From Escherichia coli (GTDB lineage Bacteria; Pseudomonadota; Gammaproteobacteria; Enterobacterales; Enterobacteriaceae), in the NCBI RefSeq assembly GCF_044324875.1, contig NZ_CP172185.1: 64,000 bases of DNA; one strand, given 5' to 3'. Positions 4,329 through 20,281 of this stretch are shown piece by piece. The position numbers and the translations under genes were made by a program. Every line of letters begins with the position of its first letter. The stretch's first letter is position 1. The notes beneath the pieces are model-generated. The model was not told the DNA's origin. It ran no database searches and saw only the letters and a list, made by a program, of their open reading frames with translations.

Positions 4329-5082
4329 ATGACCATTAAAAATGTAATTTGCGATATCGACGGCGTGCTGATGCACGATAACGTCGCCGTACCGGGTGCA
4401 GCGGAATTTTTGCACGGGATTATGGATAAAGGCCTGCCGCTGGTGTTGCTGACCAACTATCCTTCGCAGACCGGGCAAGATCTGGCGAACCGCTTTGCCA
4501 CTGCCGGTGTCGATGTACCTGACAGCGTGTTTTATACCTCTGCGATGGCGACCGCCGATTTCCTGCGTCGCCAGGAAGGCAAGAAAGCGTATGTGGTGGG
4601 CGAAGGCGCACTGATTCATGAACTGTACAAAGCCGGTTTCACTATTACCGATGTGAACCCTGATTTTGTGATTGTTGGCGAAACGCGTTCCTACAAACTG
4701 GGACATGATGCATAAAGCAGCCTATTTCGTCGCTAACGGTGCACGTTTTATCGCCACCAACCCGGACACCCACGGGCGCGGTTTTTATCCGGCGTGTGGT
4801 GCGCTGTGTGCGGGGATCGAAAAAATCTCCGGACGTAAACCGTTCTATGTTGGTAAGCCGAGTCCGTGGATCATCCGCGCAGCATTAAACAAAATGCAGG
4901 CGCATTCGGAAGAAACGGTGATTGTCGGCGATAACCTGCGTACCGATATTCTGGCGGGCTTCCAGGCCGGTCTGGAGACGATTCTGGTACTCTCCGGCGT
5001 TTCGTCGCTCGACGATATCGACAGTATGCCATTCCGCCCCAGCTGGATTTACCCATCGGTCGCCGAAATTGACGTTATCTGA
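4329..5082 (+). pseudogene. nagD: UMP phosphatase NagD/UmpH, interrupted by +1 frameshift (extra A in AAA run at 4696-4698)
   Basis: ORF track splits the gene into 4329..4715 and 4672..5082; total span 754 nt = 753+1; upstream frame reads ...VIVGETRSYKLGHDA* whereas intact NagD as I recall it reads ...VIVGETRSYNWDMMHKAAYF..., and the downstream frame continues NWDMMHKAAYFVANGARF... Confidence 0.85.
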
Positions 5083-5133
5083 ATACCACCCACGTCTGCG
5101 GACGTGGTTGGCTCTGATGACAAGCGCCAAACT

Positions 5134-6442
<1,309 letters not shown>

Positions 6443-6477
6443 GCAGCTCCTGCAATATATTGAATTTTCATGCTTTT

Positions 6478-6512
6478 GTAGGCCGGATAAGGCGTTCACG
6501 CCGCATCCGGCA
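6478..6512. repeat. REP palindromic element (second REP of a BIME-like pair)
   Basis: GTAGGCCGGATAAGGCGTTCACGCCGCATCCGGCA matches REP consensus. Confidence 0.6.
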
Positions 6513-6758
6513 TGAACAAATCGCACTTTGTCAGCAATTTGGCCCCCGTAAAATATAACCATTCAATAAAACCCGCTAAAAATTATCGATTCATCAATAA
6601 ATACATCCTTACACCAGACCTTTTTTCACCAATCGACAATCACCATTACGTTTTTTATTTTTTCACCGCCAAATCGCTTGCGCACAGTGCTGCTTTGCGG
6701 CATTTTTTTAAACAAGCAAACACAACAAGCAACAAATACCAGGTTAACGGAGAAGGTT

Positions 6759-8423
6759 ATGTGTTCAATTTTTGGCGTATTCGATATCAAAACAGACGCA
6801 GTTGAGCTGCGTAAGAAAGCACTCGAGCTGTCACGCCTGATGCGTCATCGTGGCCCGGACTGGTCCGGTATTTATGCCAGCGATAACGCCATTCTCGCCC
6901 ACGAACGTCTGTCCATTGTTGACGTTAACGCGGGGGCGCAACCTCTCTACAACCAACAAAAAACTCATGTGCTGGCAGTAAACGGTGAAATCTACAACCA
7001 CCAGGCATTGCGCGCTGAATATGGCGATCGTTACCAGTTCCAGACCGGGTCTGACTGTGAAGTGATCCTCGCGCTGTATCAGGAAAAAGGGCCGGAATTT
7101 CTCGACGACTTACAGGGCATGTTTGCCTTTGCCCTGTACGACAGCGAAAAAGATGCCTACCTGATTGGTCGCGACCATCTGGGGATCATCCCACTGTATA
7201 TGGGCTATGACGAACATGGTCAGCTGTATGTGGCCTCAGAAATGAAAGCCCTGGTGCCGGTATGCCGCACGATTAAAGAGTTCCCGGCGGGGAGCTATTT
7301 GTGGAGTCAGGACGGCGAAATCCGTTCTTATTATCATCGCGACTGGTTCGACTACGATGCGGTGAAAGATAACGTGACCGACAAAAACGAGCTGCGTCAG
7401 GCACTGGAAGATTCCGTTAAAAGCCATCTGATGTCTGATGTGCCTTACGGTGTGCTGCTATCTGGTGGCCTGGATTCCTCAATCATTTCCGCTATCACCA
7501 AGAAATACGCAGCCCGTCGCGTGGAAGATCAGGAACGCTCTGAAGCCTGGTGGCCGCAGCTGCACTCCTTTGCTGTAGGTCTGCCGGGTTCACCGGATCT
7601 GAAGGCAGCCCAGGAAGTGGCAAACCATCTGGGCACTGTGCATCATGAAATTCACTTCACTGTACAGGAAGGTCTGGACGCCATCCGCGACGTGATTTAC
7701 CACATCGAAACCTATGATGTGACCACTATTCGCGCTTCAACACCGATGTATTTAATGTCGCGTAAGATCAAGGCGATGGGCATTAAAATGGTGCTGTCCG
7801 GTGAAGGATCTGATGAAGTGTTTGGCGGTTATCTTTACTTCCACAAAGCGCCGAATGCCAAAGAACTGCATGAAGAGACGGTGCGTAAACTGCTGGCCCT
7901 GCATATGTATGACTGCGCCCGTGCCAACAAAGCGATGTCAGCCTGGGGCGTGGAAGCACGCGTTCCGTTCCTCGACAAAAAATTCCTCGACGTGGCGATG
8001 CGCATTAACCCACAGGATAAAATGTGCGGTAACGGCAAAATGGAAAAACACATCCTGCGTGAATGTTTTGAAGCGTATCTGCCTGCAAGCGTGGCCTGGC
8101 GGCAGAAAGAGCAGTTCTCCGATGGCGTCGGTTACAGTTGGATCGATACCCTGAAAGAAGTGGCGGCGCAGCAGGTTTCTGATCAACAGCTGGAAACTGC
8201 CCGCTTCCGCTTCCCGTACAACACACCGACCTCAAAAGAAGCGTATCTGTACCGGGAGATCTTTGAAGAACTCTTCCCGCTTCCGAGCGCCGCTGAGTGC
8301 GTGCCGGGCGGCCCGTCCGTCGCGTGTTCTTCCGCTAAAGCGATTGAGTGGGATGAGGCGTTCAAGAAAATGGACGATCCGTCTGGTCGTGCGGTTGGCG
8401 TTCACCAGTCGGCGTATAAGTAA
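6759..8423 (+). CDS. asnB: Asparagine synthetase B (glutamine-hydrolysing)
   Basis: ATG at 6759 after GGAGAAGG RBS; 554 aa MCSIFGVFDIKTDAVELRKKALELSRLMRHRGPDWSG...; the ORF-track start at 6678 is an in-frame upstream extension. Confidence 0.95.
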   Translation: MCSIFGVFDIKTDAVELRKKALELSRLMRHRGPDWSGIYASDNAILAHERLSIVDVNAGAQPLYNQQKTHVLAVNGEIYNHQALRAEYGDRYQFQTGSDCEVILALYQEKGPEFLDDLQGMFAFALYDSEKDAYLIGRDHLGIIPLYMGYDEHGQLYVASEMKALVPVCRTIKEFPAGSYLWSQDGEIRSYYHRDWFDYDAVKDNVTDKNELRQALEDSVKSHLMSDVPYGVLLSGGLDSSIISAITKKYAARRVEDQERSEAWWPQLHSFAVGLPGSPDLKAAQEVANHLGTVHHEIHFTVQEGLDAIRDVIYHIETYDVTTIRASTPMYLMSRKIKAMGIKMVLSGEGSDEVFGGYLYFHKAPNAKELHEETVRKLLALHMYDCARANKAMSAWGVEARVPFLDKKFLDVAMRINPQDKMCGNGKMEKHILRECFEAYLPASVAWRQKEQFSDGVGYSWIDTLKEVAAQQVSDQQLETARFRFPYNTPTSKEAYLYREIFEELFPLPSAAECVPGGPSVACSSAKAIEWDEAFKKMDDPSGRAVGVHQSAYK

Positions 8424-9765: not shown

Positions 9766-9842
9766 TTCAATGTCGAATGCGATGTTGACTCGTCTTATCC
9801 TTCAAAGTCGGATGCGACGCTGACGCGTCTTATCCGACCTAC
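9766..9842. repeat. Two tandem degenerate REP-like units (BIME-like) between tRNA terminator and ubiF 3' end
   Basis: Unit A TGTCGAATGCGATGTTGACTCGTCTTATCC and unit B GTCGGATGCGACGCTGACGCGTCTTATCCGACCTAC share the REP core GATGCGACGCTG..CGTCTTATC. Confidence 0.5.
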
Positions 9843-12770: not shown

Positions 12771-13811
12771 TTGAACATAGACACTCGCGAAATCACCCTG
12801 GAGCCAGCAGACAACGCGCGTCTGTTGAGCCTGTGCGGCCCGTTTGATGACAACATCAAACAACTCGAACGCCGTCTCGGCATCGAGATCAATCGCCGCG
12901 ATAACCACTTTAAACTGACCGGCCGTCCGATTTGCGTCACCGCTGCGGCAGACATTCTGCGTAGCCTGTATGTCGATACCGCCCCGATGCGCGGTCAGAT
13001 TCAGGATATTGAACCGGAACAGATCCACCTTGCGATTAAAGAAGCGCGGGTACTGGAGCAAAGCGCGGAGAGCGTGCCGGAGTACGGCAAAGCGGTCAAT
13101 ATCAAGACCAAACGCGGCGTAATCAAACCGCGCACGCCAAACCAGGCGCAGTACATTGCCAATATTCTCGACCATGACATCACCTTCGGCGTTGGCCCGG
13201 CGGGTACGGGTAAAACCTACCTGGCAGTGGCTGCGGCAGTTGATGCCCTGGAGCGTCAGGAAATTCGCCGTATTCTGCTGACTCGTCCGGCGGTAGAAGC
13301 CGGTGAGAAACTGGGCTTCCTGCCTGGCGATTTAAGCCAGAAAGTAGACCCGTATTTGCGCCCGCTGTACGACGCGCTGTTTGAAATGCTGGGCTTTGAG
13401 AAAGTCGAGAAACTGATTGAGCGCAACGTTATTGAAGTCGCGCCGCTGGCCTATATGCGTGGCCGTACGCTGAACGACGCGTTTATCATTCTCGATGAGA
13501 GCCAGAACACTACCATCGAACAGATGAAGATGTTCCTGACCCGTATCGGTTTTAACTCAAAAGCGGTTATCACCGGCGACGTCACGCAGATCGACCTGCC
13601 GCGTAATACCAAGTCAGGCTTACGTCATGCCATCGAAGTGCTGGCTGACGTCGAAGAGATCAGCTTTAACTTCTTCCACAGCGAAGACGTGGTTCGTCAC
13701 CCGGTGGTGGCGCGTATCGTTAACGCTTATGAAGCCTGGGAAGAAGCAGAACAAAAACGTAAAGCGGCGCTGGCAGCAGAACGCAAGCGCGAAGAACAGG
13801 AACAAAAATGA
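12771..13811 (+). CDS. ybeZ: PhoH-like ATPase
   Basis: 346 aa from TTG start at 12771 ([19 protein letters not shown]...), Walker A GPAGTGKT; ORF-track start 12732 is an upstream extension. Confidence 0.9.
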
Positions 13812-20124: not shown

Positions 20125-20281
20125 TTACAAGAACCAGGGGCGGAAATTCCAGCCCTCTCGATTGTTACGTAGCACGGACAGACTATACGCCTGATGGTCG
20201 TTCCCCATCGGGCCTGAAAACCGCAATACGCTGGGTAACAATCTTCGAGGGTAGCAGTTAACGCTGCTACCCTCTTTTTTC
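20125..20281 (+). ncRNA. sroC: Candidate SroC sRNA (gltI 3'UTR / gltI-gltJ spacer-derived), ends at intrinsic terminator
   Basis: About 160-nt non-coding spacer between gltI stop and gltJ start ending in GGGTAGCAG-ttaacg-CTGCTACCC-TCTTTTTT hairpin; position corresponds to the known SroC locus. Confidence 0.5.

What the first reader, a model, noticed from the sequence alone, without database searches (positions are those of the whole stretch)
6478..6488. Second near-cognate candidate target for the IS recombinase in the adjacent REP
The reverse complement of 6478-6488 is ATCCGGCCTAC, one mismatch from the occupied target ATCAGGCCTAC. The mismatch falls at position 4, the same position where the putative RNA guide (ATCGGGCCT) differs from the used target. 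This suggests position 4 is tolerant and that REP arms in general supply many insertion sites.
Basis: inference. Interest (0 to 1): 0.3.

Follow-up and report, generated by a model that had tools for sequence, protein, structure and literature searches.

The report
Weak off-target REP site for IS621
The flagged 11 bases are the conserved tail of an ordinary E. coli REP repeat that lies next to an IS621 insertion; the element's guide RNA can use such sites only rarely, and published work on IS621 already explains this.

Summary
The reverse complement of 6478-6488 is ATCCGGCCTAC. It differs from the occupied target ATCAGGCCTAC only at position 4, where the element's own guide (ATCGGGCCT, 5224-5232) also differs from that target.

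The sequence is there because it is the CTAC tail of a y-type REP (6478-6512). That REP is paired, in one BIME, with the z2-type REP that IS621 actually entered.

Published structures show that A at position 4 is accepted because it forms an rG:dT wobble with guide base G53. C would give an rG·dG mismatch instead.

I compared IS621 left junctions across 5,426 complete E. coli genomes. Records with at least one perfect junction numbered 1,201 for A, 224 for G, 63 for C and 19 for T at position 4. The double-wobble target ATCAGACCT scored 164. Copies with the canonical guide do sit in genuine y-type REPs at eight or more loci, but none sits in this one.

Natural IS621 sublineages carry changed guides (ATCCGACCT, ATCCGGCCT) and occupy y-type REP variants. 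Both are already in the published supplement.

Verdict: a real but weak off-target site.

The parts
5134..5160 (+). z2-type REP (GCCTGATGCGCTACGCTTATCAGGCCT). Its tail ATCAGGCCT (5152-5160) is the left half and CT core of the target that was used.
   Evidence: Sequence reading. The K-12 empty site shows the intact ATCAGGCCTAC followed by GCA.
5161..6440 (+). IS621-family element of 1280 bp, a minority sequence variant. The left end encodes the bridge RNA. The recombinase ORF is 5353-6333. The right end finishes with ACAGTATCT.
   Evidence: Pfam DEDD_Tnp_IS110 and Transposase_20. RefSeq annotates matching copies as an IS621 family transposase. It has 29 nucleotide and 4 amino-acid differences from the canonical copy.
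5224..5232 (+). Left target guide (LTG) of the bridge RNA, ATCGGGCCT. The fourth base corresponds to G53 of the published RNA.
   Evidence: Identical to the published wild-type bridge RNA guide (supplement text). LTG is A50-U58 in PMC11208158.
5253..5256 (+). Right target guide GTAG, preceded by TGC (5250-5252), the extended right target guide.
   Evidence: Sequence TGCGTAGAT. The role of UGC is described in PMC11208160 section 9.
6441..6477 (+). AC, the right half of the used target, followed by GCA and the long BIME linker (CTCCTGCAATATATTGAATTTTCATGCTTTT).
   Evidence: Sequence reading. Contiguous with the z2 REP in K-12. Sub-threshold Rfam ES036 hit over the linker.
6478..6512 (-). y-type REP (minus strand: TGCCGGATGCGGCGTGAACGCCTTATCCGGCCTAC), unoccupied.
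   Evidence: Matches the y REP query sequence given in PMC11208160 methods. The hairpin folds at -12 kcal/mol, z = -2.9. Partial Rfam naRNA4 hit, 38 bits, below the gathering score.
6478..6488 (-). The finding: ATCCGGCCTAC. The CT core would be plus-strand 6480-6481. Position 4 is C (plus-strand G6485). The 3' flank is AAA.

Best explanation
The 11-mer is the CTAC-end tail of a y-type REP. This REP forms a BIME with the z2-type REP that an IS621-family element entered.

IS621 chooses targets with a bridge RNA. Its left guide AUCGGGCCU pairs with the bottom strand of target positions 1-9, and GUAG pairs with the top-strand CTAC. At z-type REPs (ATCAGGCCTAC) position 4 forms an rG:dT wobble, so these abundant sites are used efficiently.

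At the flagged y-type site position 4 would be an rG·dG mismatch. The 3' flank is AAA rather than the GCA that extends right-guide pairing. The site is therefore a weak single-mismatch off-target for the resident element. It is usable in principle, sites like it are used rarely in nature, and this one is unused in every complete genome examined.

The same 11-mer is a perfect match to the guide of a natural IS621 sister copy (ATCCGGCCT). It is one mismatch from the guide of an actively spreading sublineage (ATCCGACCT).

What is shown: the anatomy, the natural junction counts and the guide variants. What is inferred: that the rarity of C sites is caused by the rG·dG mismatch.
For: Anatomy and empty site.

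Element identity. The bridge RNA folds into a 5' stem-loop plus two large loops, z = -4.1.

Published mechanism: in BL21(DE3), 129 of 173 insertion sites were ATCAGGCCTAC and 2 were ATCGGGCCTAC, together 96.21% of insertions. Tolerance at position 4 is attributed to rG:dT, and GCA flanks are favoured. The G53:tT11* non-canonical pair was seen by cryo-EM. Mismatch tolerance is described as low overall.

Natural census: perfect junctions CTTATC[N]GGCCT plus left end gave A 1,201, G 224, C 63 and T 19 records out of 2,123. ATCAGACCT gave 164.

Sampling: 16 C-junction genomes yielded 9 loci. Eight carry a canonical-guide, full-length copy, seven of them in complete y-type REPs and one (ruvB-znuB) in a z1-like REP.

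Availability: ATCCGGCCTAC occurs 4 times and ATCAGGCCTAC twice (one of them occupied) in 164 kb.

Guide variants: ATCCGACCT is in 28 genomes at 71 places, and 4 of 5 sampled copies sit at ATCCGACCTAC. ATCCGGCCT is in 371 genomes.
Against: The junction counts are records with at least one perfect junction. They are neither independent insertion events nor per-site rates.

Site availability rests on only 164 kb plus the BIME pairing rule (PMC3333891).

No experiment on the G-guide/C-target combination was accessible to me. The screen tables in Supplementary Table 3 were truncated in the held copy.

For the z1-like ruvB-znuB site and the T-site example, I did not test whether the position-4 base predates the insertion.

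An absence from this locus in 5,426 genomes cannot show that the site is unusable.
Confidence: 0.8

Rival explanations
1. Position 4 of the IS621 target is a generally degenerate position, so any ATCNGGCCTAC in a REP is a good insertion site.
For: All four bases are found at position 4 in natural left junctions. [quoted passage not shown]
Against: Counts are strongly skewed: A 1,201, G 224, C 63, T 19. C sites are nevertheless at least as common as A sites in the sample. G sites are rare in the genome, with only 2 hit in BL21, yet they are occupied in 224 records. The published reason for A is a specific rG:dT pair. The position-6 G-to-A variant is also common at 164 records, so the pattern follows wobble chemistry and is not tied to position 4.
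Confidence: 0.08
2. Canonical-looking copies at ATCCGGCCTAC sites were not placed by mismatch tolerance. They were placed by bridge RNAs with a C at guide position 4, supplied in trans by a variant copy in the same cell, or the guide was later converted back.
For: Variant guides ATCCGGCCT and ATCCGACCT exist in E. coli. In the synaptic complex the two loops come from two different bridge RNA molecules, so mixing is conceivable. One sampled C-site copy (PT62, mhpE-mhpT) does carry a variant guide.
Against: 15 of 16 sampled C-site copies carry the canonical guide. Only 4 of the 59 listed C-site genomes appear among the listed genomes with the ATCCGACCT variant. The ATCCGGCCT copy is a single frameshifted relic at one locus. 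In BL21(DE3), with only the wild-type bridge RNA supplied from the plasmids, 42 sites other than A or G were hit, most often with one or two mismatches.
Confidence: 0.1
3. At this locus the 11-mer has no relation to the insertion sequence at all. It is only a REP tail conserved for REP functions, and its likeness to the target is a by-product of y and z REPs being one repeat family.
For: The same y REP is present unchanged in K-12 and GZ04-0086. None of 5,426 genomes has IS621 in it. It folds as a REP hairpin.
Against: An almost identical context, a y REP tail followed by the long linker ACAAAGTCATGCAAATTCAATATATTG, is occupied by a canonical IS621 at yiiF-fdhE. Six other y REPs in the sample are occupied by canonical-guide copies. 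Such sites are therefore reachable. This reading is compatible with the best explanation and is not opposed to it.
Confidence: 0.25

Closest known systems
IS621 bridge RNA-guided recombination (Durrant et al. 2024, PMC11208160; Hiraizumi et al. 2024, PMC11208158)
   Same: The resident element has the same guides (ATCGGGCCT and GTAG), the same donor ends (ACAGTATCT|TGTAT), the same CT core and the same natural target ATCAGGCCTAC with a GCA flank.
   Different: The window's copy is a minority variant, with 29 nucleotide differences including 3 changes in the loop between the two target guides and 4 amino-acid changes. The flagged site has C at position 4. The papers do not discuss this case in their main text, but their supplement lists such natural targets.
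REP/BIME repeats of E. coli: y, z1 and z2 REPs with linkers (Ton-Hoang et al. 2012, PMC3333891)
   Same: The locus is a z-type REP, a long linker and an inverted y-type REP. The flagged 11-mer is the CTAC (complement of GTAG) end of the y REP.
   Different: Nothing unusual. Here a z2-type REP is joined to y by a long linker. The cited scheme pairs that linker with z1 (BIME-1), so this would be an atypical BIME.
REP-targeting insertion sequences in general (Tobes and Pareja 2006, PMC1525189; ISPpu9, PMC12288879; IS1397)
   Same: These are IS110-family and other elements that insert at a fixed point in REP repeats, so the host's repeat family supplies many safe intergenic sites.
   Different: Those papers concern other elements or the general phenomenon. 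I did not read them in detail here. IS1397 turned up only as a neighbour of the relic copy.
Natural IS621 guide variants listed in Durrant et al., Extended Data Fig. 5a (groups TBL_ATCCGACCTAC and TBL_ATCCGGCCTAC)
   Same: The ATCCGACCT-guide copies I found, for example at nagA-agaS in strain C9, match a listed target. The relic with guide ATCCGGCCT is in their covariation input.
   Different: Most of their 245 targets for the ATCCGGCCTAC guide appear to belong to a different element with an unrelated left end. That element is absent from the complete E. coli genomes.

Membership tests
IS621 / IS110-family bridge recombinase element (the resident element at 5161-6440) | Recombinase with an N-terminal DEDD RuvC-like domain and a C-terminal Tnp domain | tested here: met
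   Pfam PF01548 (E = 1.5e-24) and PF02371 (E = 8.9e-26) on the 326-aa ORF. It has 4 amino-acid differences from the canonical IS621 protein.
IS621 / IS110-family bridge recombinase element (the resident element at 5161-6440) | The left end encodes a bridge RNA with target-binding and donor-binding loops | tested here: met
   The left end is near-identical to the published 177-nt bridge RNA, including both target guides. It is predicted to fold into a 5' stem-loop and two large loops, z = -4.1. Rfam has no family for it.
IS621 / IS110-family bridge recombinase element (the resident element at 5161-6440) | CT core at both junctions and no inverted terminal repeats; a precise empty site exists elsewhere | tested here: met
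   Junctions read ATCAGGC-CT|TGTAT and ACAGTAT-CT|AC. K-12 has the exact 461-bp empty site.
Efficient (cognate) IS621 target site, ATC[A/G]GGCCTAC | CT core at positions 8-9 and AC at positions 10-11 | tested here: met
   ATCCGGC-CT-AC at 6478-6488 on the minus strand.
Efficient (cognate) IS621 target site, ATC[A/G]GGCCTAC | Positions 1-7 pair with the left guide by Watson-Crick or G:T wobble pairs | tested here: not met
   Position 4 is C, so the bottom strand has G opposite guide G53, an rG·dG mismatch. The other six positions match.
Efficient (cognate) IS621 target site, ATC[A/G]GGCCTAC | A 3' flank GCA that extends right-guide pairing. This is a favouring feature, not an obligatory one. 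| tested here: not met
   The flank is AAA (ATCCGGCCTAC-AAAAGC). The occupied site has GCA.
Efficient (cognate) IS621 target site, ATC[A/G]GGCCTAC | Occupied by IS621 in some natural genome | tested here: not met
   The predicted junction for this locus has no perfect match in 5,426 genomes. The best hits, at 96%, are other loci. The sequence class ATCCGGCCTAC is occupied elsewhere in 63 records.
y-type REP within a BIME | GTAG-headed imperfect palindrome matching the y consensus | tested here: met
   6478-6512 equals the y REP sequence quoted in PMC11208160 methods except for one loop base. The hairpin is predicted.
y-type REP within a BIME | Paired in inverted orientation with a z-type REP across a linker | tested here: met
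   The K-12 empty site shows z2 REP, a 35-nt linker and an inverted y REP. The architecture follows PMC3333891.
y-type REP within a BIME | Match to a curated RNA or repeat model | tested here: inconclusive
   Rfam naRNA4 gives 38.2 bits against a gathering score of 59.5. Only one REP of the model is covered.

The most novel reading that the evidence does not exclude
Rare single-mismatch insertions of canonical IS621 into y-type REPs act as stepping stones. A copy that lands in y-type REP territory and then acquires G53-to-C (and G55-to-A) in its guide gains access to a second, equally large family of safe sites. This would found new sublineages such as the ATCCGACCT-guide lineage, which has up to 10 copies per genome. 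If so, this would be natural guide evolution among copies that are more than 97% identical within one species. My data show the variants and their matched targets but not the order of events, and the variants themselves are already listed in published supplementary data.
Probability: 0.3. Interest if true: 0.4.

Novelty: already known. Interest (0 to 1): 0.17.

Why it matters
It matters little beyond confirmation. The case is a textbook illustration of how bridge-RNA pairing rules shape where IS621 lands. Wobble-compatible REP variants are used heavily, while a transversion at the same position cuts use sharply.

The junction census across 5,426 genomes gives a natural-population estimate of off-target preference that agrees with the published laboratory data. 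That agreement is mildly useful to people designing bridge RNAs.

The retargeted natural sublineages show that one or two guide substitutions are enough to move the element to another repeat subfamily. That principle is also already published.

Tried and rejected
- **Rfam scan:** a scan of 4800-6900 found no bridge RNA family, only sub-threshold REP/BIME-derived hits.
- **BL21(DE3) insertion-site list:** I looked for the 173 sites to see whether ATCCGGCCTAC was hit. Supplementary Table 3 is truncated in the held copy and the strings are absent from it. Supplementary file 1 has only legends.
- **Exact count in the published supplement:** counting C sites among the 834 natural targets of the canonical guide would need about 7 look-ups. 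I read one part, in which 2 of 38 had C at position 4. From string totals I estimate only "a few percent".
- **Occupancy of the z2 arm at nagD-asnB:** the locus-specific query failed because the BIME flank is itself repeated. The figure of 1,143 records above 80% coverage is not locus-specific. I can name only the window, GZ04-0086 and 2013C-3264 as occupied.
- **The 303-record band:** I first thought the 303 records that fitted the C query better than the other queries were all the relic with guide ATCCGGCCT. I did not resolve this band and do not rely on it.
- **The other IS110 element:** the element whose guide is ATCCGGCCTAC in the published data has no match in complete E. coli genomes. 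An exact 31-mer found nothing in species-representative genomes. I dropped it.
- **Site availability:** I could sample only 164 kb.
- **Empty-site check:** I considered testing whether C predates the insertion at the z1-like ruvB-znuB site but had no searches left. For the y-type sites the complementary G in the other REP arm makes C ancestral.

Full report
**What is at the coordinates.** Window 6478-6488 reads GTAGGCCGGAT, and its reverse complement is ATCCGGCCTAC. It is the only ATCNGGCCTAC in the window, against 0.02 expected from shuffles. The neighbourhood is E. coli nagC-nagD, then an insertion sequence, then asnB.

The inserted element occupies 5161-6440. Its 326-aa ORF (5353-6333) carries the DEDD_Tnp_IS110 and Transposase_20 domains. 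RefSeq annotates matching copies as an IS621 family transposase.

- The left junction is CTTATCAGGC-CT|TGTATTATCC.
- The right junction is ACAGTAT-CT|AC.
- K-12 MG1655 has the exact empty site...GCCTGATGCGCTACGCTTATCAGGCCTACGCAGCTCCTGCAATATATTGAATTTTCATGCTTTTGTAGGCCGGATAAGGCGTTCACGCCGCATCCGGCA....

The used target is therefore ATCAGGCCTAC followed by GCA. The guide string ATCGGGCCT lies at 5224-5232 in the left end.

**Why the 11-mer is there.** The empty site is a BIME. It consists of a z2-type REP (5134-5160 plus AC), a long linker (to 6477) and an inverted y-type REP (6478-6512). The y REP matches the y sequence quoted in the IS621 paper's methods. It folds as a hairpin and gives a partial, sub-threshold hit to the REP-derived Rfam family naRNA4.

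E. coli REPs come in y, z1 and z2 types, and BIMEs pair a y with a z in inverse orientation (PMC3333891). The two 11-mers are the homologous CTAC tails of two members of one repeat family. Their similarity is inherited. It is not a coincidence that needs the insertion sequence to explain it.

**What is already published.** IS621 selects its target with a bridge RNA.
- LTG (the left target guide, A50-U58) pairs with the bottom strand of the target. RTG (the right target guide, G77-G80) pairs with the top strand. G53 forms a non-canonical pair with the bottom-strand T of the natural target (PMC11208158).
- In BL21(DE3) the wild-type system hit 173 sites, 144 of them in REPs. Of these, 129 were ATCAGGCCTAC and 2 were ATCGGGCCTAC, together 96.21% of insertions.
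- The authors attribute the position-4 tolerance to the rG:dT pair. They also note that a 3' GCA flank, complementary to UGC next to the right guide, marks favoured sites (PMC11208160 section 9).
- Single mismatches are otherwise poorly tolerated.

By that logic the flagged site is different in kind from the used one. C at position 4 puts G opposite G53, and the flank is AAA rather than GCA.

**Natural census.** The element family is present in 2,244 of 5,426 complete E. coli genomes, at 13,171 places. I queried 46-nt left junctions of the form CTTATC[N]GGCCT plus 34 nt of the canonical left end. All queries found the same roughly 12,445 junction places in 2,123 records.

| Left junction queried | Records whose best place is a perfect match |
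|---|---|
| ATCAGGCCT (position 4 = A) | 1,201 |
| ATCGGGCCT (position 4 = G) | 224 |
| ATCCGGCCT (position 4 = C) | 63 (59 rows at 100% identity and full coverage) |
| ATCTGGCCT (position 4 = T) | 19 |
| ATCAGACCT (control: G-to-A at position 6, a second possible wobble) | 164 |

These are counts of genomes with at least one such junction. They are not independent events.

The order is still informative. The perfect-match G site is occupied in 224 records although only two such sites were hit in BL21. The wobble variants are common. The transversions are rare.

Availability does not explain the rarity of C. The window plus two arbitrary 50-kb stretches of K-12 (164 kb) contain ATCCGGCCTAC 4 times, against ATCAGGCCTAC once intact and once occupied. 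This fits the y/z pairing in BIMEs.

**Are the C-site copies real?** I fetched 16 of the C-junction genomes. They fall into 9 loci: ruvB-znuB, yjgA-mpl, ppc-argE, yahG-yahI, hypF-norW, ytfR-ytfQ, rlmG-rnpB, yiiF-fdhE and mhpE-mhpT.
- At all nine loci the sampled copy is essentially full length (1,278-1,279 bp), with target ATCCGGCCT|...|AC.
- At eight loci it carries the canonical guide ATCGGGCCT. Seven of these lie in complete y-type REPs (TGCCGGATGCGGCG..ACGCCTTATCCGGCCTAC), so the C is ancestral and paired with a G in the other arm.
- The ruvB-znuB site is a z1-like REP in which C might be a mutation. I could not test its empty-site allele.
- The yiiF-fdhE case is a close analogue of the flagged site: a y REP tail followed by the long linker ACAAAGTCATGCAAATTCAATATATTG.

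The published supplement also lists natural ATCCGGCCTAC targets for the canonical guide, such as seq53, seq54, seq626 and seq834.

At this particular locus the predicted junction has no perfect match in any of the 5,426 genomes. The z2 arm, by contrast, is occupied in the window, in GZ04-0086 (by a canonical copy) and in 2013C-3264.

**Guide variants.** That copy has the guide ATCCGACCT and a changed region next to the right guide.
- *ATCCGACCT variant.* It occurs in 28 genomes at 71 places, up to 10 per genome, with an intact transposase. Four of five sampled copies sit at ATCCGACCTAC, a perfect match, in REPs whose arms read GTCGGATG...ATCCGACC.
- *ATCCGGCCT variant.* It is about 95% identical to the window's copy, 1,264 bp long and frameshifted. 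It is present as about one copy in 371 genomes. All three sampled copies lie at the same IS1397-kgtP site, with target ATCCGACCTAC, again a possible rG:dT wobble, this time at position 6.

The flagged 11-mer is thus a perfect match to the second variant's guide and one mismatch from the first. Both guide classes are already in the published supplement (TBL_ATCCGACCTAC with 35 targets, one identical to my nagA-agaS locus; the relic is in the covariation input). This is confirmation and not discovery. Most of the published targets for the ATCCGGCCTAC guide appear to belong to an unrelated element that is absent from complete E. coli genomes.

**Mechanism and rivals.** The best-supported reading is that the site is a weak, single-mismatch off-target for the resident element. 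This explains the skewed census, the laboratory data and the emptiness of this site.
- *Generally degenerate position 4.* This does not fit the skew or the position-6 control.
- *Variant guide RNAs acting in trans.* This reading, for canonical copies at C sites, cannot be excluded. It is less economical because 15 of 16 sampled copies carry the canonical guide and the wild-type RNA alone produces mismatched insertions in BL21.
- *Only a REP tail.* This is true of its origin and compatible with the main explanation.

**Novelty and score.** IS621 targeting of REPs, the position-4 wobble, low mismatch tolerance and natural guide diversity are all published. The finding is a correct reading of the sequence with a partly correct inference. 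It adds nothing new in kind, and interest is low.

Noticed in passing
window 4693-4698, within nagD (4329-5082): nagD carries an extra A (CTACAAACTGG against CTACAACTGG in K-12 and GZ04-0086). This splits the gene into ORFs 4329-4715 and 4672-5082. It is either a real frameshift or a homopolymer sequencing error.
   Followed up: partly
window 5161-6440: The resident copy is a minority IS621 variant. Only 51 records hold a copy at 99% identity or better, and the canonical IS621 is 97.7% identical. It has 29 differences, including a T at the position where the published bridge RNA starts with A, and 3 changes (one a 1-nt insertion) in the loop between the two target guides. The best match, NZ_LR778147.1, is itself interrupted by an IS200/IS605 tnpA. 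No complete RefSeq genome has this variant at nagD-asnB, so the window's strain is not in that set.
   Followed up: partly
window 9832-9842 (+): ATCCGACCTAC, another REP tail. It is the perfect target for the natural ATCCGACCT-guide IS621 sublineage and is unoccupied here.
   Followed up: no
L016 and L020-L023 (PT62, isolate 602, C9, MB53): An IS621 sublineage with guide ATCCGACCT and an intact transposase (WP_040064624.1) reaches 8-10 copies per genome in a few strains from pigeon, poultry and frog, which suggests recent activity. One copy sits at ATCCGGCCTAC, which implies tolerance of an rA·dC mismatch at position 6.
   Followed up: partly
L001, L024, L025 (EcPF40, A13, GPEC1186): A frameshifted 1,264-bp IS621 relative with guide ATCCGGCCT sits immediately downstream of a frameshifted IS1397, between the rrn operon and kgtP. 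It is apparently shared by 371 genomes as a single old insertion. In GPEC1186 it is further truncated by an IS21-family element.
   Followed up: partly
window 6434-6477 (-) and 6481-6517 (+): Sub-threshold Rfam hits to ES036 (CssrF) and naRNA4 (CssrE) fall on the BIME linker and the y REP. These 'sRNA' families appear to be models of REP/BIME sequence.
   Followed up: no
L028 (TUM18781, codA-cynR): A canonical-guide IS621 sits at ATCTGGCCTAC inside a REP whose other arm is y-type (GCCGGATG). The T is therefore probably a C-to-T change. I could not tell whether it arose before or after the insertion.
   Followed up: no
window 20207-20215 (+): A second ATCGGGCCT 9-mer occurs outside the element. 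It is not followed by AC, so it is not a full target. I did not examine it.
   Followed up: no
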